In this document: positions 803-56,789 of the stretch, in pieces
Layout of the letters: every line of letters begins with the position of its first letter
Position numbering within the stretch: the stretch's first letter is position 1
DNA from: Shigella phage ESh24
DNA: 64,000 bases
Sequence record: ON528734
Direction: 5' to 3' (one strand)
The notes under the pieces: model-generated
The model's database searches: none
Told to the model about the DNA's origin: nothing
The model's input: only the letters and a program-made list of their open reading frames with translations
Position numbers and translations under genes: made by a program

Positions 803-967
803 ATGAAAACATATAAAGAATTTATCAAAGAAGATATGGTCGCTGGAGATTCAGGTGGTAATCCTGAAAATATCTCTACTGGAACAACATCAGGTGCTGT
901 AGTAAATAAAGGTCCTGAACAGATTCCTAAAAAGAAAAAAGAGGAATCTAAAGAAAAAGAAGAGTAA
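803..967 (+). CDS. hypothetical small Lys/Glu-rich protein (position of T4 61.1)
   Basis: 54 aa, below ORF-track cutoff: MKTYKEFIKEDMVAGDSGGN..KKKKEESKEKEE*; ATG 2 nt after previous stop, ends 3 nt before gene 61. Confidence 0.5.
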   Translation: MKTYKEFIKEDMVAGDSGGNPENISTGTTSGAVVNKGPEQIPKKKKEESKEKEE

Positions 968-2285: not shown

Positions 2286-3625
<1,340 letters not shown>

Positions 3626-22103: not shown

Positions 22104-22562
22104 ATGAAATACATGACTGTTACTGATCTGAATAATGCAGGCGCTACTGTTATTGGTACAATCAAGGGCGGTGAGTGGTTTTTGGGAACTCCGCATAAAG
22201 ATATTTTATCTAAACCTGGATTTTACTTTTTAGTGAGTAAATTAGATGGTCGTCCATTTAGTAATCCATGTGTGTCTGCACGATTTTATGTGGGTAATCA
22301 GCGTTCTAAGCAAGGATTCAGCGCAGTTCTAAGTCATATTCGTCAACGCCGGTCTCAACTTGCGCGTACTATTGCAAATAACAATGTTCCATACACAGTA
22401 TTTTATCTGCCTGCTTCTAAGATGAAACCTCTGACGACGGGATTTGGTAAAGGTCAGTTAGCTTTAGCGTTTACTCGTAATCATCATTCTGAGTATCAAA
22501 CACTTGAAGAAATGAACCGTATGTTGGCTGATAACTTTAAATTTGTTTTACAGGCATATTAA
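22104..22562 (+). CDS. ndd: nucleoid disruption protein Ndd
   Basis: 151 aa from ATG 22104 (SD AGAGGAAA); [25 protein letters not shown].. matches T4 Ndd. Confidence 0.9.
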
Positions 22563-22642
22563 TGAGTAATTTCCACAACGAACACGTGATGCAGTTCTAT
22601 CGTAATAATTTTAAAACTAAAGGCGTCTTCGGACGCCAGTGA
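22562..22642 (+). CDS. stp: Stp peptide (anti-EcoprrI, activator of PrrC anticodon nuclease)
   Basis: 26 aa [26 protein letters not shown]; TAATG coupling to ndd; essentially the T4 Stp sequence as recalled. Confidence 0.85.
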
Positions 22643-22649
22643 GGAAAAT

Positions 22650-22812
22650 ATGGTTATTCTGGTTTTTTATTGAACTTATTACGGCTATTGTCTGTTCGGT
22701 TTGCTTCTTTTTAGGCATGTGGACCCCAGGTTCAGTATTCTTAAGTTTTCTGTTTATTGCCTGGGTGCTTTCTACTTCTGTTGGCTTACTTAAGATGATT
22801 AAAAATGATTAA
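22650..22812 (+). pseudogene. ac: ac (acridine sensitivity) membrane peptide, apparent +1 frameshift at a T6 run
   Basis: ATG 22650 with SD GAGGAAAA stops after 7 codons (TGA 22671-22673); hydrophobic frame IELITAIVCSVCFFLGMWTPGSVFLSFLFIAWVLSTSVGLLKMIKND continues in +1 to TAA 22810-22812; removing one T of 22663-22668 gives one 53-aa ORF. Confidence 0.6.
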
Positions 22813-22949: not shown

Positions 22950-24278
22950 ATGCAACTGAATAATCGCGATTTAAAAAGTATCATTGATAATGAAGCATTG
23001 GCTTATGCTATGTACACGGTTGAAAATCGTGCTATCCCAAATATGATTGACGGATTTAAGCCAGTTCAACGATTTGTTATTGCTCGAGCTCTTGATTTGG
23101 CACGAGGAAATAAAGATAAGTTTCACAAACTCGCTTCTATTGCAGGTGGTGTAGCGGACCTTGGATATCATCATGGTGAAAACTCTGCGCAAGACGCAGG
23201 TGCTTTAATGGCTAACACTTGGAATAATAACTTTCCTCTGTTAGATGGTCAAGGAAACTTTGGTTCTCGTACCGTCCAAAAAGCAGCAGCAAGTCGTTAT
23301 ATTTTTGCTCGTGTAAGTAAAAATTTCTATAACGTATATAAAGATACTGAATATGCTCCGGTACATCAAGATAAAGAACACATTCCGCCTGCTTTCTATT
23401 TGCCTATTATTCCTACTGTTCTTCTTAATGGCGTTTCCGGTATTGCAACTGGTTATGCAACTTACATTCTTCCTCATAGTGTTTCTTCTGTCAAGAAAGC
23501 TGTACTACAAGCTCTTCAAGGAAAGAAAGTAACTAAACCGAAGGTAGAATTCCCAGAATTTCGTGGTAAAGTCGTTGAAATTGATGGGCAATATGAAATT
23601 CGTGGAACATATAAGTTTACTTCACGAACTCAAATGCATATCACTGAGATTCCGTATAAGTATGATCGTGAAACTTATGTGAGTAAAATCTTAGACCCAC
23701 TTGAAGATAAAGGCTTCATTACATGGGATGATGCTTGTGGTGAGCACGGCTTCGGCTTTAAAGTTAAATTCCGTAAAGAATATTCTTTGAGCGATAATGA
23801 AGAAGAACGCCATGCAAAAATTATGAAAGACTTCGGGTTGATTGAGCGTCGTTCTCAGAATATTACGGTTATTAATGAGAAAGGAAAGCTACAAGTTTAC
23901 GATAACGTAGTCGATTTAATTAAAGACTTTGTTGAAGTTCGTAAAACTTATGTCAAAAAACGAATTGATAACAAAATCAAAGAAACTGAATCAGCTTTTC
24001 GTTTAGCCTTTGCCAAGGCACATTTCATTAAGAAAGTAATTTCAGGTGAAATTGTTGTACAAGGTAAAACTCGTAAAGAACTAACCGAAGAACTTTCTAA
24101 AATTGATATGTATTCTTCTTATGTTGATAAACTAGTCGGAATGAATATTTTTCATATGACTTCCGACGAAGCAAAGAAACTTGCTGAAGAAGCAAAAGCT
24201 AAAAAAGAAGAAAACGAATATTGGAAAACTACTGATGTAGTTACAGAATACACCAAAGATTTAGAGGAAATCAAATGA
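22950..24278 (+). CDS. 52: DNA topoisomerase II medium subunit gp52 (GyrA-like cleavage subunit)
   Basis: 442 aa; active-site region AAASRYIFARV; matches T4 gp52. Confidence 0.95.
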   Translation: MQLNNRDLKSIIDNEALAYAMYTVENRAIPNMIDGFKPVQRFVIARALDLARGNKDKFHKLASIAGGVADLGYHHGENSAQDAGALMANTWNNNFPLLDGQGNFGSRTVQKAAASRYIFARVSKNFYNVYKDTEYAPVHQDKEHIPPAFYLPIIPTVLLNGVSGIATGYATYILPHSVSSVKKAVLQALQGKKVTKPKVEFPEFRGKVVEIDGQYEIRGTYKFTSRTQMHITEIPYKYDRETYVSKILDPLEDKGFITWDDACGEHGFGFKVKFRKEYSLSDNEEERHAKIMKDFGLIERRSQNITVINEKGKLQVYDNVVDLIKDFVEVRKTYVKKRIDNKIKETESAFRLAFAKAHFIKKVISGEIVVQGKTRKELTEELSKIDMYSSYVDKLVGMNIFHMTSDEAKKLAEEAKAKKEENEYWKTTDVVTEYTKDLEEIK

Positions 24279-25985: not shown

Positions 25986-26281
25986 TGAATATTAAAAAGT
26001 TTCAAATTGATGGAATTATGAATCAAATCCAGGCGCTGGAATATGCCAATAAAATGATGTCAACTAATTGGGGAATTTATACCAATGAACCTGCATTTCA
26101 GTTTTGTGATATGGAATTAACTAAAAAGCTCGTAGGAAAAGATTATGTATGTCCATTTAGTTCTCCAGTAAATGGAATGTTAAAACCTGCTTTACGCGAT
26201 CTTTATATTGCGATGAATGAAGAGATGATAAAAGATCTAAAACGTCAACTGAAGGTAATTCAATTTGGCCAGGGAAATTAA
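25985..26281 (+). CDS. hypothetical early protein
   Basis: 98 aa; TAATG coupling. Confidence 0.55.
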   Translation: MNIKKFQIDGIMNQIQALEYANKMMSTNWGIYTNEPAFQFCDMELTKKLVGKDYVCPFSSPVNGMLKPALRDLYIAMNEEMIKDLKRQLKVIQFGQGN

Positions 26282-26483
26282 TTCAAAATCCGATTATTTT
26301 AATTCTCTCAATGATAAAGATAAAAATCTAATACGGCATTTTATTGTTGAGATGGGATATACTGACACACGTGATTTAAGAGAACATATATTTGAATGTG
26401 GTGTAGCTAAAAAGTTTTCATTCACATGCAAATGTTTGAGAGAGGTAATTCAGCACTATGAACAATTTAGTCGCAAAACATAA
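26265..26483 (+). CDS. hypothetical early protein with TTG start
   Basis: 72 aa; only TTG 26265 available, SD GAAGG 9 nt upstream; overlaps previous ORF by 17 nt. Confidence 0.4.
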   Translation: MAREINSKSDYFNSLNDKDKNLIRHFIVEMGYTDTRDLREHIFECGVAKKFSFTCKCLREVIQHYEQFSRKT

Positions 26484-26577
26484 TTTTAATAAAGCTTCTG
26501 TCCATAAAGATAAGAAGAAAGCGTTTAAAGAATCTAATCGCAAACAGAAACATAAGGGGAAGGTCTATGATTATTGA
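26458..26577 (+). CDS. possible very basic 39-aa peptide
   Basis: MNNLVAKHNFNKASVHKDKKKAFKESNRKQKHKGKVYDY; overlaps both neighbours out of frame; weak SD. Confidence 0.3.
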   Translation: MNNLVAKHNFNKASVHKDKKKAFKESNRKQKHKGKVYDY

Positions 26578-26846
26578 TTCTCAATCTGTGGTTCAATATA
26601 CAATCAAAATTGATATTCTAGAAAAGCTATATAAGTTTTCTACCAAATTTATACCATTCAATTGTTAATGAATTAGTTGAAGAATTACATCTTGAGAATA
26701 ACGATTTCTTGATTGGAACTTATAAAGACCTCTCAAAAGCAGGATATTTTTACGTAATTCCAGCTCCAGGAAAAAGTATTGATGATATATTAAAAACTAT
26801 AATGATTTACGTCCATGATTACGAAATTGAAGATTATTTCGAATGA
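26567..26846 (+). pseudogene. arn: arn (anti-restriction nuclease, McrBC inhibitor), apparent +1 frameshift at a T4 run
   Basis: MIIDSQSVVQYTIKIDILEKLYKF then frame stops at 26666-26668; +1 frame continues LPNLYHSIVNELVEELHLENNDFLIGTYKDLSKAGYFYVIPAPGK..HDYEIEDYFE*; 280 nt, 279 after removing one T of 26636-26639, which gives 92 aa as in T4 Arn. Confidence 0.7.
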
Positions 26847-26995
26847 GTCATAATCTTGAAAAGGTAATCGAGCACAATGTAGCTCAGGAACGTGAGTCGT
26901 TCAAGGAATTCGTAGAAAAAATTTTTGAAGAAAATAACACAGACCAGTTTACAAATCAAGCGTCTGATGATATTATAACAAAGTCAACTAATTGA
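26843..26995 (+). CDS. hypothetical small acidic protein (position of T4 asiA.1)
   Basis: 50 aa MSHNLEKVIEHNVAQERESFKEFVEKIFEENN..; ATGA overlap with arn stop. Confidence 0.45.
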   Translation: MSHNLEKVIEHNVAQERESFKEFVEKIFEENNTDQFTNQASDDIITKSTN

Positions 26996-41198: not shown

Positions 41199-41429
41199 AT
41201 GGCTAAAGTTGATATTGACATTGTTGATTTTGAATATATTGAAGAGATTATTCGTAATCGTTATCCTGAACTTAGTATCACAAGTATTCACGATGATCCC
41301 AATTATTGCAATTTTTCTATTGTCATTGAAGGTCCTCTTGAAGACCTCACCCGCTTTATGGCTAATGAATATTGTGATGGTATGGATTCTGAAGACGCAG
41401 AATTTTACATGGGATTGATTGAACAATAA
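41199..41429 (+). CDS. hypothetical acidic early protein
   Basis: 76 aa from ATG 41199 with SD AGAGGAAAA (track start 41136 reads through the promoter). Confidence 0.55.
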
Positions 41430-41436
41430 TTATCAA

Positions 41437-41453
41437 GGGGCTATTACAGCCCC
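41437..41453 (+). other. RNA hairpin
   Basis: ggggct-attac-agcccc between two early ORFs. Confidence 0.45.
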
Positions 41454-41473
41454 GTTAAAATGAGGAAAACGCA

Positions 41474-41839
41474 ATGTATATCGGTAAAAAGTATGAACTT
41501 GTTCCAAGACTTATTGATACATTTATTAATTATCGCCCACGTTCTAATTCAGCAATAGTTAAAATTATTCAAGAAAATGGCGGATGGTTTGAAGTTAAAG
41601 AAGCTTTCTTTGTTGATGGATTTAGAGTAATAAAACACATTGAATGCGCAAATGGAAAGCATTTTTACTTTAACGTTTGTGAAGACGAATTTCATTGTTT
41701 TCGTGAGTATAAAGAACTGACTTCTGAAGAAGATGAAGTCAAAGACAAGGTTTCTGGCGTAACAAAAATTCACTGCATTGTAGACGAAAACAATGTAGAT
41801 GAAATCATTGAACTTTTGCGAAAAACTTTCAAAAAGTAG
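41474..41839 (+). CDS. hypothetical early protein, IGKxY / EDEFxxF family
   Basis: 121 aa MYIGKKYELVPRL..VCEDEFHCFREYKE; SD GAGGAAAA. Confidence 0.6.
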   Translation: MYIGKKYELVPRLIDTFINYRPRSNSAIVKIIQENGGWFEVKEAFFVDGFRVIKHIECANGKHFYFNVCEDEFHCFREYKELTSEEDEVKDKVSGVTKIHCIVDENNVDEIIELLRKTFKK

Positions 41840-41868
41840 TTTACAACAGGGTAGTAGTGTGATACTAT
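41840..41868 (+). promoter_or_regulatory. T4-type early promoter
   Basis: -35 TTTACA 41840-41845, 17 nt, -10 TACTAT 41863-41868. Confidence 0.65.
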
Positions 41869-41893
41869 TACCCTATCAACTAAGGAGAATAAA

Positions 41894-42136
41894 ATGAGAT
41901 TACAACGCCAGAGCATCAAAGATTCGGAAGTTAGAGGTAAATGGTATTTTAATATCATCGGTAAAGATTCTGAACTCGTTGAAAAAGCTGAACATCTTTT
42001 ACGTGATATGGGATGGGAAGATGAATGTGATGGATGCCCTCTTTATGAGGATGGAGAAAGCGCAGGATTCTGGATTTACCATTCTGACGTCGAGCAGTTT
42101 AAAGCTGATTGGAAAATTGTGAAAAAGTCTGTTTAA
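41894..42136 (+). CDS. hypothetical early protein
   Basis: 80 aa; SD AAGGAGAA. Confidence 0.55.
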   Translation: MRLQRQSIKDSEVRGKWYFNIIGKDSELVEKAEHLLRDMGWEDECDGCPLYEDGESAGFWIYHSDVEQFKADWKIVKKSV

Positions 42137-42146
42137 GGAAAATAAT

Positions 42147-42389
42147 ATGATTTTTGTATTTGAATTTATGAATGATGAATTCGATTATGCAATTTTTAAC
42201 GCATTGCATAATCCTGATTTAAATGAATTTAATGAAATGTTTTCTGACGCTTTGAGCATGTCAGAAGAATACTGTGGAGAATGTCAACGTGTTTGTGTGA
42301 CAGTTTTTGAAAACAAAGAAAAGACTTACGAAGAATTATTCTTTGATGCTAATAAAGCCACTGAATGGTTTATTGAAAGGGGGTTTTGA
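42147..42389 (+). CDS. hypothetical acidic early protein
   Basis: 80 aa; SD AAGGAAAA. Confidence 0.55.
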   Translation: MIFVFEFMNDEFDYAIFNALHNPDLNEFNEMFSDALSMSEEYCGECQRVCVTVFENKEKTYEELFFDANKATEWFIERGF

Positions 42390-42977
<588 letters not shown>

Positions 42978-48134: not shown

Positions 48135-48810
48135 ATGAGCACAGTTTTTAATACAAATCCAGTTGATGTTTTAAAAGAACCTATGTTTTTTGGTTCAGGT
48201 CTTGGTATTGCGCGTTATGATATTCAGCGGCATCGAGTATTTGAAGAACTTACTGAGAAGTCTTTATCATTTTTCTGGCGTCCTGAAGAAGTAAACTTAA
48301 TGATGGATGCTGCGCAATTTAATAAGCTTCCTCAGTATCAGCAAAATATTTTTACTAATAACCTGAAGTATCAATCACTTTTGGATAGCATTCAGGGTCG
48401 TGCGCCATCTGCTGTACTTATGTCATTAATTTCAGACCCGAGTCTTGATACATGGGTTGCTACATGGACTTTTAGTGAAACTATTCACAGTCGTTCATAT
48501 ACACATATCATGCGAAATCTTTATACTGATCCATCGAAGGTATTTGATGAGATTGTATTAGATGAAGCTATTATGAAACGCGCTGAATCCATTGGACGTT
48601 ATTATGATGATGTTCTGATTAAAACCCGTGAATGGGAAAATGCTAAAGAATTTGTAGAACTAGCTAAAGAATCTCCTGATGCCGACTTTCGTTTAAACAG
48701 GGCTATTAAACAAGAAGCCGAAGCTAAACGCGCTTTAATGAAATCTCTTTACCTCTGTTTACACGTTATTAATGCCTTAGAAGCTATTCGTTTTTATGTA
48801 TCTTTTGCGT
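48135..48810 (+). CDS. nrdB: ribonucleotide reductase small subunit, exon 1
   Basis: 225 codons plus 1 nt, ..ALEAIRFYVSFA then T of a split Cys codon; ORF-track stop 48810-48812 spans the splice site. Confidence 0.9.
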
Positions 48811-49895
48811 AAAATGCGCCTTTAAACGGTAACGTTTATCGAAAACTCCTTTAATTGCTGGAAAGTCCTTTATAGGAAAACTAGCAGCCAAGGTTTTGCT
48901 TGCACCTTTAATTAGTATAATATGATTATACTTTTAAGAGGATGCACAATTGAACTATAGAAAAATTTGGATAGATGCTAACGGACCTATACCTAAAGAT
49001 TCTGATGGAAGAACATACGAAATCCATCATAAAGACGGTAACCGTGAAAATAATGATTTAGATAATTTGATGTGCCTTTCTATACAGGAACATTATGATA
49101 TACATTTAGCTCAAAAAGATTACCAGGCTTGTCATGCTATAAAGCTTAGAATGAAATATTCTCCTGAAGAAATTTCTGAATTAGCTTCTAAAGCCGCAAA
49201 ATCTAGAGAAATCCAGATTTTTAATATCCCTGAAGTACGAGCTAAAAATATTGCCTCTATTAAATCTAAGATAGAAAATGGTACATTTCATCTTTTAGAC
49301 GGTGAAATACAGCGTAAATCTAATTTAAATAGAGTTGCATTAGGTATACATAATTTTCAACAAGCTGAGCATATTGCAAAAGTTAAAGAACGCAATATTG
49401 CAGCTATAAAAGAAGGTACTCATGTATTTTGCGGTGGTAAAATGCAGTCAGAAACTCAATCAAAACGGGTAAATGACGGTTCACATCATTTCTTGTCAGA
49501 AGACCATAAGAAAAGAACATCAGCAAAAACATTAGAAATGGTTAAGAACGGGACCCATCCTGCACAAAAAGAAATCACATGTGATTTCTGCGGTCACATT
49601 GGTAAAGGTCCTGGATTTTATCTAAAACATAATGACAGATGTAAATTAAATCCAAATAGAATTCAATTGAATTGTCCATATTGTGATAAGAAAGATTTAT
49701 CACCATCAACATATAAACGATGGCACGGCGACAATTGCAAAGCAAGGTTCAACGACTAGTCTTCGGACGTAGGGTCAAGCGACTCGAAATGGGGAGAATC
49801 CCTCTGGGATTGTGATATAGTCTGGTCTGCATAGTAATATGTAGCAGTTCATAAGAGAACGGGTTGAGAATTAGCGAGCTCAATCGAACATAACG
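48811..49895 (+). mobile_element. nrdB group I intron, long form (1085 nt) carrying full-length I-TevIII
   Basis: Splicing 48810 to 49896 gives [32 protein letters not shown] (R2 iron-ligand region); 3' core tagggtcaagcgactcgaaa and gatatagtctggtctgcat parallels the td intron; ends ..cgaacataacg. Confidence 0.85.
48950..49759 (+). CDS. I-TevIII: HNH homing endonuclease I-TevIII, full length
   Basis: 269 aa; TTG start with SD AAGAGGA 7 nt upstream; HNH EIHHKDGNRENNDLDNLMCLSIQEHYDIH; C-terminal Zn fingers CDFCGH..HNDRC and CPYCDK..HGDNC. Confidence 0.85.
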   Translation: MNYRKIWIDANGPIPKDSDGRTYEIHHKDGNRENNDLDNLMCLSIQEHYDIHLAQKDYQACHAIKLRMKYSPEEISELASKAAKSREIQIFNIPEVRAKNIASIKSKIENGTFHLLDGEIQRKSNLNRVALGIHNFQQAEHIAKVKERNIAAIKEGTHVFCGGKMQSETQSKRVNDGSHHFLSEDHKKRTSAKTLEMVKNGTHPAQKEITCDFCGHIGKGPGFYLKHNDRCKLNPNRIQLNCPYCDKKDLSPSTYKRWHGDNCKARFND

Positions 49896-50398
49896 GTACC
49901 TTTAACTTCCATAAGAACATGGAAATCATGGAAGGTAATGCCAAGATTATGAAGTTCATTGCACGCGATGAACAGCTTCACCTTAAAGGCACCCAATATA
50001 TTATTCGTCAGCTTCAATCCGGTACTGATGGTGATGAATGGGTTAAAATTGCCAAAGAGTGTGAACAAGAAGCAGTTGATATTTTCATGGAAGTTAACCG
50101 CCAAGAAAAAGATTGGGCAGTTCATTTATTTAAAGATGGCGATGTTCCTGGATTAAATACAAATAGCATGTGGAGCTTTATTGATTACTTAACTGTATCT
50201 CGTATGAAACAGTGTGGTCTTCCATGCCCGATTACCGATGCTCCGGTTAAACATCCATATCCTTGGATTCGTGAATACCTTAATTCTGATAATGTTCAAT
50301 CCGCGCCGCAAGAAGTAGAACTGTCATCTTATCTTGTTGCACAGATTGATAATGATGTTGATGATAAAGTTATGATGAGTTTTAAAAAATACTTTTAA
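49896..50398 (+). CDS. nrdB: ribonucleotide reductase small subunit, exon 2
   Basis: Starts with GT completing the Cys codon, then [33 protein letters not shown]..; exons total 392 aa. Confidence 0.9.
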
Positions 50399-55974: not shown

Positions 55975-56552
55975 AAGCGAGTACAGTACTTCAAATTGCA
56001 TATTTAGTATCACAAGAATCAAAATGTTGCTCCTGGAAGGTAGGAGCAGTAATTGAAAAGAATGGACGTATTATTTCTACTGGGTATAATGGTTCGCCTG
56101 CCGGTGGTGTGAACTGCTGTGATTATGCTGCCGAGCAAGGTTGGTTGTTGAATAAACCTAAACATACTATCATTCAAGGTCATAAGCCTGAATGCGTATC
56201 ATTTGGTTCAACTGATCGCTTTGTCTTGGCGAAAGAACACCGTAGCGCTCACTCTGAATGGTCGTCTAAAAATGAAATTCATGCTGAACTAAATGCAATT
56301 TTGTTTGCTGCACGAAATGGTTCTTCTATTGAAGGTGCTACTATGTATGTAACACTTTCTCCTTGTCCAGATTGTGCAAAAGCGATAGCTCAATCTGGTA
56401 TTAAAAAGCTGGTTTATTGCGAAACATACGATAAAAATAAACCTGGCTGGGATGATATTCTGCGAAATGCAGGTATTGAAGTGTTTAATGTTCCTAAGAA
56501 AAACTTGAATAAGTTAAACTGGGAAAATATCAACGAATTCTGTGGTGAATAA
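55971..56552 (+). CDS. cd: dCMP deaminase
   Basis: 193 aa; Zn motifs HAELNA and PCPDCAKAI. Confidence 0.95.
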   Translation: MKASTVLQIAYLVSQESKCCSWKVGAVIEKNGRIISTGYNGSPAGGVNCCDYAAEQGWLLNKPKHTIIQGHKPECVSFGSTDRFVLAKEHRSAHSEWSSKNEIHAELNAILFAARNGSSIEGATMYVTLSPCPDCAKAIAQSGIKKLVYCETYDKNKPGWDDILRNAGIEVFNVPKKNLNKLNWENINEFCGE

Positions 56553-56789
56553 TGAAATTTCGTTTGGTAAAGCTCACAGCAATTAGTTCTTATTCTAATG
56601 AGAACATCTCGTTTGCTGTAGAGTATAAGAAATATTTTTTTCTCTAAATGGAAACAGTATTATAAAACTGATTGGACTAGTATTGATAGACCATATAGTT
56701 GGAAATCTGATTTAGAAAAATGCCAAAAATTACTTTCCACTCTTAAAGAACGTGGAACAACTCATATTAAAACTGTAATAGGTAAATAA
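56552..56789 (+). pseudogene. small ORF downstream of cd (position of T4 31.2), apparent +1 frameshift at a T7 run
   Basis: ATG 56552 (TAATG with cd) gives MKFRLVKLTAISSYSNENISFAVEYKKYFFL* (stop 56645-56647); +1 frame continues FSKWKQYYKTDWTSIDRPYSWKSDLEKCQKLLSTLKERGTTHIKTVIGK* to 56789; removing one T of 56635-56641 gives one 78-aa ORF. Confidence 0.6.

What the first reader, a model, noticed from the sequence alone, without database searches (positions are those of the whole stretch)
26567..26846. arn (anti-McrBC DNA mimic) carries a +1 frameshift at a T4 run
The N-terminal 24 residues (MIIDSQSVVQYTIKIDILEKLYKF) and the +1-frame continuation (LPNLYHSIVNELVEELHLENNDFLIGTYKDLSKAGYFYVIPAPGK..DYEIEDYFE*) together reproduce the 92-aa T4 Arn as I recall it. 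In this sequence, aag-tttt-cta has one T too many (26636-26639). The zero frame therefore ends after 33 codons at 26666-26668. If real, this phage lacks a functional inhibitor of the host McrBC restriction system. That is tolerable if its hmC is fully glucosylated. It is the same lesion class as in ac and in the ORF after cd.
Basis: partly seen in the sequence, partly recalled or inferred. Interest (0 to 1): 0.5.

Follow-up and report, generated by a model that had tools for sequence, protein, structure and literature searches.

The report
Frame-broken arn gene in T4-like phage
In this T4-like phage sequence the known anti-restriction gene arn is broken by one extra T, an ordinary lesion that is either a recent, tolerated mutation or a base-calling error, and only the sequencing reads can decide which.

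Summary
The window is a Tequatrovirus segment and arn lies at 26567-26846 (+). It reads AAG-TTTT-CTA (26636-26639), where relatives read AAG-TTT-CTA. The zero frame therefore stops at 26666-26668 after 33 codons.

Removing one T gives a 92-aa protein that is 89/92 identical to T4 Arn (PDB 3WX4) and matches the whole Pfam DM_Arn profile. The product as written keeps only 18 of 79 profile positions and loses the acidic charge (net +1 instead of -9).

The TTTT allele is unique. A seed-spanning 42-mer hits 0 of 50,697 phage records, while the wild-type 41-mer hits 413.

The whole 64-kb window has only two further true frame breaks, in ac and 31.2. Both are also single-T insertions in T runs that were found in no other phage record. 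All larger genes are intact.

I favour a genuine recent null or leaky mutation (about 0.55) over a sequencing artefact (about 0.4). Programmed recoding is unlikely. The mutant site is a UUU_U tetranucleotide, which is known to be prone to +1 slippage, so a trace of wild-type Arn is possible.

This is an ordinary lesion in a known gene, and interest is low.

The parts
26554..26563 (+). Shine-Dalgarno region of arn (AAGGGGAAGG), intact
   Evidence: Sequence. The predicted duplex with the anti-SD is -8.4 kcal/mol, against -10.6 for a prfB-type SD.
26567..26668 (+). arn zero frame as written: 24 native codons, 9 out-of-frame codons, then TAA (33-aa product)
   Evidence: Pfam DM_Arn scores only 25.6 bits (cutoff 26) and covers profile positions 1-18 of 79. 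Net charge is +1.
26636..26639 (+). T4 run holding the one-base insertion (relatives have T3). In the mRNA it reads as zero-frame codon UUU followed by U, i.e. a UUU_U site.
   Evidence: Alignment A1. The TTTT 42-mer hits 0 phage records, while the wild-type 41-mer hits 413. There are also 0 hits in IMG/VR and in the JGI metagenome contigs. Codon register is shown.
26640..26846 (+). Remainder of arn (codons 25-92 plus TGA) in the +1 frame, with no stop codon and no sign of decay
   Evidence: It is 97-98.6% identical to T6 and ECP52 Arn residues 24-92. Apart from the insertion, the gene differs from RB3 at three positions, and each of those states also occurs in T4 or in contig L018.
26709..26846 (+). 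The only canonical in-frame restart candidate (TTG, 45-aa C-terminal fragment); unlikely to be used
   Evidence: There is no SD (-2.7 kcal/mol). It would cover DM_Arn profile positions 40-79 only.
26843..26995 (+). asiA.1. Its ATG overlaps the arn stop (ATGA) and it has no SD of its own, so its expression may depend on ribosomes finishing arn (inferred polar effect).
   Evidence: The anti-SD duplex is only -1.0 kcal/mol.
22650..22812 (+). ac (acridine resistance) with the same class of lesion: T6 run at 22663-22668 against T5 in AugustSocin. The zero frame reads MVILVFY and then stops.
   Evidence: The T6-allele 42-mer hits 0 phage records.
56552..56789 (+). 31.2 (the ORF after cd) with the same class of lesion: T7 run at 56635-56641 against T6 in relatives. 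The zero frame stops at 56645-56647.
   Evidence: The T7-allele 42-mer hits 0 phage records.

Best explanation
This is a genuine, evolutionarily very recent single-T insertion in the T3 run at arn codon 24, probably from replication slippage. It shifts the frame by +1.

Shown: translation from the intact RBS yields a 33-aa peptide (24 native residues plus 9 out-of-frame). This peptide lacks three quarters of the DM_Arn domain and its acidic surface.

Inferred: the phage therefore makes little or no Arn DNA mimic. The loss is tolerated because Arn matters only when phage hmC DNA is not glucosylated. The allele is probably leaky. The mutant mRNA reads AAG UUU_UCU, and a +1 slip of P-site tRNA-Phe from UUU to the overlapping UUU restores exactly the wild-type sequence (...LYKF-LPNLY...). 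Such a slip is likely to occur at a low level. Premature termination may also lower expression of the translationally coupled asiA.1.

The ac and 31.2 lesions in the same window are independent events of the same kind.
For: - The insertion is real in the given sequence and is the only indel in the gene.
- Overall sequence quality looks high. tblastn of all T6 CDS, plus an ORF-based scan against T6 and ECP52, finds every larger gene intact (34, 35, 36, nrdA, rIIA, rIIB, 39, 52, dda, 30, 32, 59, rnh and others). The only true frame breaks in 64 kb are in arn, 31.2 and ac.
- Only about 20% of homopolymer runs in mapped coding DNA lie in ORFs of 100 aa or less. Random base-calling errors would therefore put 3 of 3 there with p of about 0.008-0.01. 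Selection on real mutations predicts this pattern.
- T3 is a short run, which is atypical for a homopolymer consensus error.
- Frame-changing indels are demonstrably tolerated in this neighbourhood. A 2-bp deletion splits the T6-type ORF249c in the window, RB3 and ECP52. T4 record MT984581 carries a 1-bp deletion in arn itself.
- Dispensability: Arn acts on McrBC restriction of T4gt, i.e. non-glucosylated phage (PMC12707154). hmC-lifestyle genes in the window are intact (alc at 306 bits, a gene 56 dCTPase homologue, denA, denB, cd).
[quoted passage not shown] The codon register was verified.
Against: - The allele occurs nowhere else. It hits 0 of 50,697 phage records against 413 for the wild type. 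It is absent from IMG/VR and JGI metagenome contigs. Neither the 33-aa nor the 45-aa product is on record.
- The gene shows no secondary decay, and the insertion is its only private change. That is equally what a sequencing error would look like.
- All three frame breaks are the same event type, a +1 T in a T run on the same strand. This could point to a systematic artefact.
- No reads are available.
- The small-ORF enrichment test uses a category chosen after seeing the data.
Confidence: 0.55

Rival explanations
1. The extra T is a sequencing or assembly artefact, an over-called T in a homopolymer. The real phage would then have TTT and an intact 92-aa Arn. The ac and 31.2 breaks would be artefacts of the same process.
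For: - The allele is unique among 413-484 related records and all other collections searched.
- The downstream 68 codons are perfectly preserved, and the gene has no other private change.
- The window has three unique frame breaks of one identical type, +1 T in T runs of 3, 5 and 6.
- Deposited T-even records do contain probable errors. For example, T6 MH550421 has an extra C in essential gene 52, which is left unannotated there.
Against: - There is no frame error in about 41 kb of larger genes, so 3 of 3 in ORFs of 100 aa or less has p of about 0.01 under random placement.
- A T3-to-T4 change is an unusual consensus error on any platform.
- Candidate-private 1-bp indels elsewhere are intergenic and of both signs, as expected for natural variation and not for a one-directional error process.
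Confidence: 0.4
2. Programmed recoding: in this phage arn is normally expressed by an efficient +1 ribosomal frameshift at AAG UUU_UCU. The gene would then be functional and regulated at the translational level.
For: - The site is a perfect UUU_U +1 re-pairing site in the correct register, and the slip restores the wild-type protein (PMC5009743).
- The ac and 31.2 lesions are also zero-frame UUU_Y sites.
- The local RNA fold is slightly more stable than shuffled sequence (z = -2.0).
Against: - There is no conservation. All 413-484 relatives encode Arn in a single frame.
- There is no SD-like stimulator upstream (-0.3 kcal/mol against -10.6 for a prfB-type element).
- The A-site codon is an ordinary UCU, not a stop or a known hungry codon.
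- The weak A-U hairpin is also present in wild-type alleles.
Confidence: 0.03
3. A C-terminal Arn fragment made by re-initiation at TTG 26709 (45 aa) supplies the function.
For: The fragment covers DM_Arn profile positions 40-79 at 86 bits and is acidic (net -4).
Against: - There is no SD (-2.7 kcal/mol).
- The TTG lies 41 nt past the zero-frame stop.
- The fragment lacks the N-terminal half of a small single-domain protein.
- No such product is on record anywhere.
Confidence: 0.02

Closest known systems
Bacteriophage T4 Arn (anti-restriction nuclease; DNA mimic; PDB 3WX4; Pfam PF22134 DM_Arn)
   Same: After removal of one T, the product is 92 aa and 89/92 identical to T4 Arn. It matches the full Pfam profile at 179.8 bits and has a net charge of -9. 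The gene order is the same, arn.2 - arn.1 - arn - asiA.1 - asiA - t.
   Different: S70 is the T2-type state. A 2026 preprint reports that this state abolishes Arn's inhibition of the PUA-Cal-HAD defence (PMC12871103).
arn allele of T4 record MT984581
   Same: It is another deposited T-even genome whose arn carries a single-base homopolymer indel.
   Different: That lesion is a deletion (A3 to A2) near codon 86. It alters only the last few residues and is annotated there as a 285-nt CDS. The window's lesion removes residues 25-92.
UUU_Ynn +1 shift-prone sites in bacteria (argI, Fu and Parker 1994; Yersinia YopN-TyeA), as reviewed in PMC5009743
   Same: The zero-frame tetranucleotide UUU_U allows perfect re-pairing of tRNA-Phe in the +1 frame.
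   Different: There is no evidence here that the shift is used, no conservation, and no known stimulator.
'Savior indel' with compensatory low-level frameshifting (herpesvirus thymidine kinase G7 run), as reviewed in PMC5009743
   Same: A one-base indel in a homopolymer run is itself slippery, so a trace of full-length product could still be made.
   Different: The run here is only four bases, and no selective benefit of reduced Arn is known.
prfB (RF2) programmed +1 frameshift
   Same: Both involve a +1 shift of a P-site tRNA onto an overlapping UUU.
   Different: prfB needs an internal SD three bases upstream and a zero-frame UGA in the A site. Neither is present here.

Membership tests
Arn / DM_Arn (PF22134) | Sequence matches the family profile above the curated cutoff over the whole domain | tested here: met
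   The conceptually repaired 92-aa product scores 179.8 bits (cutoff 26) over profile positions 1-79 of 79. It matches PDB 3WX4 at E 1.6e-55.
Arn / DM_Arn (PF22134) | A single uninterrupted ORF of about 92 codons encodes the domain | tested here: not met
   The zero frame stops after 33 codons. That product scores 25.6 bits, below the cutoff of 26, and covers profile positions 1-18 only.
Arn / DM_Arn (PF22134) | Conserved genomic position between arn.1 and asiA.1/asiA in T-even phages | tested here: met
   Annotated RB3, T6 and ECP52 regions and tblastn mapping.
Arn / DM_Arn (PF22134) | Strongly acidic surface, as required for DNA mimicry | tested here: inconclusive
   The repaired product has net charge -9, and the product as written has +1. 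Only composition was tested, not surface geometry.
Arn / DM_Arn (PF22134) | Inhibits McrBC restriction of non-glucosylated hmC DNA | not testable with these tools
   This needs plating of glucosylation-deficient phage on mcrBC+ and mcrBC- hosts.
Programmed +1 ribosomal frameshift (prfB type) | Slippery P-site codon that allows re-pairing in the +1 frame | tested here: met
   AAG UUU_UCU in the zero-frame register.
Programmed +1 ribosomal frameshift (prfB type) | Internal Shine-Dalgarno stimulator just upstream of the shift site | tested here: not met
   The best anti-SD duplex in the 22 nt upstream is -0.3 kcal/mol, against -10.6 for a prfB-like element.
Programmed +1 ribosomal frameshift (prfB type) | Slowly decoded or stop codon in the zero-frame A site | tested here: not met
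   The A-site codon is UCU (Ser), and the zero-frame stop lies 9 codons further on.
Programmed +1 ribosomal frameshift (prfB type) | The frameshift arrangement is conserved among relatives | tested here: not met
   No record carries TTTT, while 413 carry the in-frame TTT.
Sequencing homopolymer artefact | Reads disagree with the consensus, or the consensus is not reproduced by an independent chemistry | not testable with these tools
   No reads are available, and the source genome was not found in any collection.

The most novel reading that the evidence does not exclude
The three private lesions (arn, ac, 31.2) are all single-T insertions that create zero-frame UUU_Y sites. At each site a +1 slip of tRNA-Phe restores exactly the wild-type protein. 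This phage might therefore tolerate, or even exploit, leaky frameshift alleles that turn accessory genes down without switching them off. That would be compensatory ribosomal frameshifting in a T-even phage.
Probability: 0.07. Interest if true: 0.5.

Novelty: already known. Interest (0 to 1): 0.18.

Why it matters
If the extra T is real, this is a natural or laboratory T-even isolate that lacks most or all Arn. It could serve as a ready-made arn mutant for three uses:
- testing McrBC sensitivity of non-glucosylated progeny;
- testing Arn's reported effects on H-NS and on the PUA-Cal-HAD defence;
- measuring in vivo +1 slippage at UUU_U.

If it is an artefact, it flags three positions (22663-22668, 26636-26639 and 56635-56641) that should be corrected before annotation, so that arn, ac and 31.2 are not reported as pseudogenes. 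Either way the finding adds no new kind of biology.

Tried and rejected
1. Finding the same allele or the source genome.
- The exact 35-mer and a degenerate 30-mer for TTTT gave 0 hits in IMG/VR and in the JGI metagenome contigs.
- A seed-spanning 42-mer gave 0 hits among phage records. It was validated by the wild-type control, which hit 413 records.
- Exact-product look-ups of the 33-aa and 45-aa fragments, gp38 and the holin found nothing on record.
- Contigs with an identical arn.3 (L005, L006) are only about 96% identical to the window and carry an intact arn.
- Contig Ga0129313_1000271 shares the downstream arn haplotype, but it carries TTT and has 6 other differences in arn.

2. 61.1 as a fourth lesion: rejected. 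The window ORF 803-967 ends cleanly before gene 61, and ECP52 annotates an ORF of the same 165-nt length that ends just before its primase gene. Only T6 differs.

3. Other apparent frame splits were reference-specific or spurious:
- the T6 ORF249c fusion;
- the ECP52 ndd-stp fusion;
- antisense ORFs;
- the nrdB split, a roughly 1.1-kb interruption consistent with its intron.

4. Stimulatory RNA structure: there is only a weak A-U fold (z = -2.0), and it is shared with wild-type alleles.

5. Restart at TTG 26709, or at the out-of-frame ATG at 26668: neither has an SD, and the ATG is in the wrong frame.

6. The structural paper on Arn (PMC4175342) is not held, so I made no residue-level structural argument.

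7. The glucosyltransferase genes lie outside the window, so glucosylation could not be assessed.

Full report
**What the window is.** The region matches 484-494 Tequatrovirus (T4-like) records at 92-99% identity. It lies in reverse orientation relative to the T4 map. The source genome itself is not in the phage collection: the best match over 24 kb is about 95% identical. The local gene order is arn.4, arn.3, arn.2, arn.1, arn, asiA.1, asiA and then t on the other strand, as in RB3, T6 and ECP52.

**Checking the observation.**
- arn starts at ATG 26567, behind a strong Shine-Dalgarno sequence (AAGGGGAAGG, 26554-26563; -8.4 kcal/mol with the anti-SD).
- Positions 26636-26639 are TTTT.
- The zero frame reads MIIDSQSVVQYTIKIDILEKLYKF-STKFIPFNC and stops at 26666-26668.
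- The +1 frame continues LPNLYHS...DYEIEDYFE and stops at 26844-26846.
- Alignment with RB3 and T6 shows a single gap column inside the T run and no other indel.
- tblastn with T6 Arn, and also with ECP52 Arn, splits at residue 24 into two frames.
- Removing one T gives a 92-aa protein that is 89/92 identical to T4 Arn (PDB 3WX4, E 1.6e-55). It matches the whole Pfam DM_Arn profile at 179.8 bits.

**How unusual the allele is.**
- All 484 related records align over the whole gene. Of the 60 rows listed from a spread down the ranking, 59 span 279 bases against our 280, and one T4 record spans 278.
- A 42-mer centred on TTTT forces every 28-base megablast seed to span the site. It matches none of 50,697 phage records.
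- The control 41-mer with TTT matches 413 records, 305 of them perfectly.
- Degenerate patterns for the TTTT allele find nothing in IMG/VR or in the JGI metagenome contigs. The wild-type pattern finds 6 IMG/VR contigs.
- Neither the 33-aa product nor the 45-aa TTG-initiated fragment is on record as a called gene anywhere.
- Apart from the insertion, the window's arn differs from RB3 at three positions. Each of those states also occurs in T4 or in a metagenomic contig.

The insertion is thus the only private change in the gene. It is either very recent or not real.

**Context in the rest of the window.** I compared the window with T6 and ECP52 at the DNA level and the protein level.
- All larger genes are intact.
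- There are three true frame breaks in the 64 kb:
  - arn, T3 to T4;
  - ac, T5 to T6 at 22663-22668, which leaves the zero frame as MVILVFY-stop;
  - 31.2, the ORF after cd, T6 to T7 at 56635-56641, with a stop at 56645-56647.
- The ac and 31.2 alleles also gave no match among the phage records. I ran no wild-type control for those two queries.
- An apparent fourth break in 61.1 is not a lesion. ECP52 annotates an ORF of the same 165-nt length ending just before its primase gene, and the ORF scan shows a split against T6 only.
- About ten further single-base indels that both references lack are intergenic and of both signs, as expected for natural variation.
- Only about 20% of homopolymer runs in mapped coding DNA lie in ORFs of 100 aa or less. 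Random base-calling errors would hit only such ORFs three times out of three with p of about 0.01. This category was chosen after seeing the data, so the figure is only indicative.

**Consequence for the protein.**
- The product as written keeps 24 native residues.
- It covers 18 of 79 DM_Arn profile positions and scores below the Pfam cutoff.
- Its net charge is +1, against -9 for the full protein.
- A functional DNA mimic is therefore not expected from the zero frame. This is an inference.
- The only canonical in-frame restart codon is TTG 26709. It has no SD and would give only the C-terminal half.
- asiA.1 starts at the ATGA overlap with the arn stop and has no SD of its own (-1.0 kcal/mol). 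Early termination in arn may therefore lower its expression. This is also an inference.

**Possible leakiness.** The mutant mRNA reads AAG UUU_UCU in the zero frame. [quoted passage not shown] It also describes indels in homopolymer runs that are compensated by low-level frameshifting (PMC5009743). A +1 slip of tRNA-Phe here re-pairs perfectly and restores exactly the wild-type Arn sequence. The same holds for ac (GUU UUU_UAU) and 31.2 (UUU UUU_CUC).

I found nothing that would make this efficient:
- no SD-like element lies upstream (-0.3 kcal/mol, against -10.6 for a prfB-type element);
- the A-site codon is an ordinary UCU;
- the local fold is weak and made of A-U pairs (z = -2.0);
- the arrangement is absent from every relative.

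Programmed recoding is therefore unlikely, but a trace of full-length Arn is plausible.

**Biology of losing Arn.** According to the EcoSal Plus review, Arn is a DNA mimic that inhibits McrBC restriction of T4gt, the glucosylation-deficient phage, and it also interacts with H-NS (PMC12707154). A 2026 preprint reports that T4 Arn also inhibits the PUA-Cal-HAD defence. That inhibition depends on N70, and the T2-type S70 protein is inactive (PMC12871103). The window's repaired Arn has S70.

The window carries intact hmC-lifestyle genes: alc, a gene 56 dCTPase homologue, denA, denB and cd. The phage very probably has modified DNA, but the glucosyltransferase genes lie outside the window and could not be examined.

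**Real mutation or artefact.**
- For a real mutation:
  - the sequence is otherwise clean in about 41 kb of larger genes;
  - the lesions fall only in small accessory genes;
  - T3 is a short run for a consensus error;
  - frame-changing indels are tolerated nearby, such as the 2-bp deletion that splits the T6-type ORF249c in the window, RB3 and ECP52;
  - a T4 stock record carries a 1-bp deletion in arn.
- For an artefact:
  - the allele is unique;
  - the gene shows no decay;
  - all three lesions are the same event type;
  - deposited T-even records do contain probable errors, such as the extra C in gene 52 of T6 MH550421.

I put a real mutation at about 0.55, an artefact at about 0.4, and the remainder on recoding or restart. 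Only the reads or resequencing can settle it.

**Verdict.** This is a frame-broken copy of a well-known gene, not a new kind of feature, and it merits low interest.

Noticed in passing
window 22650-22812 (T run 22663-22668): ac (acridine resistance) has one extra T (T6, against T5 in AugustSocin). The ATG frame stops after 7 codons, and the rest of the gene happens to be in frame with an upstream GTG at 22639. The allele is absent from all phage records.
   Followed up: yes
window 56552-56789 (T run 56635-56641): Gene 31.2 (the ORF after cd) has one extra T (T7, against T6 in T6 and ECP52). The zero frame stops at 56645-56647. The allele is absent from all phage records.
   Followed up: yes
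window 803-967: The 61.1 homologue looks frame-split against T6, but it is a clean 54-codon ORF ending just before the gene 61 ATG. ECP52 annotates an ORF of the same 165-nt length at this position. This is a natural allele, not a lesion.
   Followed up: yes
window 2286-2846: A 186-aa ORF abuts the start of dam (2846-3625). It is absent at this position in T6 and ECP52 but present in 163 phage records, where it is annotated as hypothetical. It has a weak, sub-threshold Pfam hit to the DpnII (GATC) restriction endonuclease (16.8 bits against a cutoff of 23) and a motif that looks like PD-(D/E)xK. It may be a nuclease-like partner of Dam.
   Followed up: partly
window 26265-26577: The T6-type 104-aa ORF249c, which the T6 annotation notes as conserved in distant T4-like phages, is split here by a 2-bp deletion near 26460 into arn.1 (72 aa from a TTG) and a 39-aa ORF. 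RB3 and ECP52 show the same split. This is a fixed natural frame-split right beside arn.
   Followed up: partly
L014 (T4 record MT984581), arn codon ~86: This T4 stock record has a 1-base deletion in arn (GAAATT to G-AATT) that changes the C-terminal residues. It is annotated there as a 285-nt CDS.
   Followed up: partly
L003 ~41207-42538 (T6 record MH550421); window 22950-24278: The T6 record leaves essential gene 52 unannotated and has an extra C relative to the window (window position 24087). The window's gene 52 is an intact 442-codon ORF. This is probably an error or lesion in the T6 record.
   Followed up: partly
L016 22692-23231 (ECP52): ECP52 annotates a 180-aa 'nucleoid disruption protein' that corresponds to ndd fused to stp. 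In the window ndd (22104-22562) and stp (22562-22642) are separate, as in T6.
   Followed up: no
window 48809-49898: nrdB is interrupted by about 1.1 kb between its two coding parts (residues 1-221 and 223-388 of the T6 protein). This is consistent with the known group I intron of T-even nrdB. T6 instead has mobE next to an uninterrupted nrdB.
   Followed up: no
window 26772-26774 (Arn codon 70 in the repaired frame): The repaired Arn has S70 (with I13 and I74) where T4 has N70. A 2026 preprint reports that N70S abolishes Arn's inhibition of the PUA-Cal-HAD defence, so even an intact copy would be the T2-type variant.
   Followed up: partly
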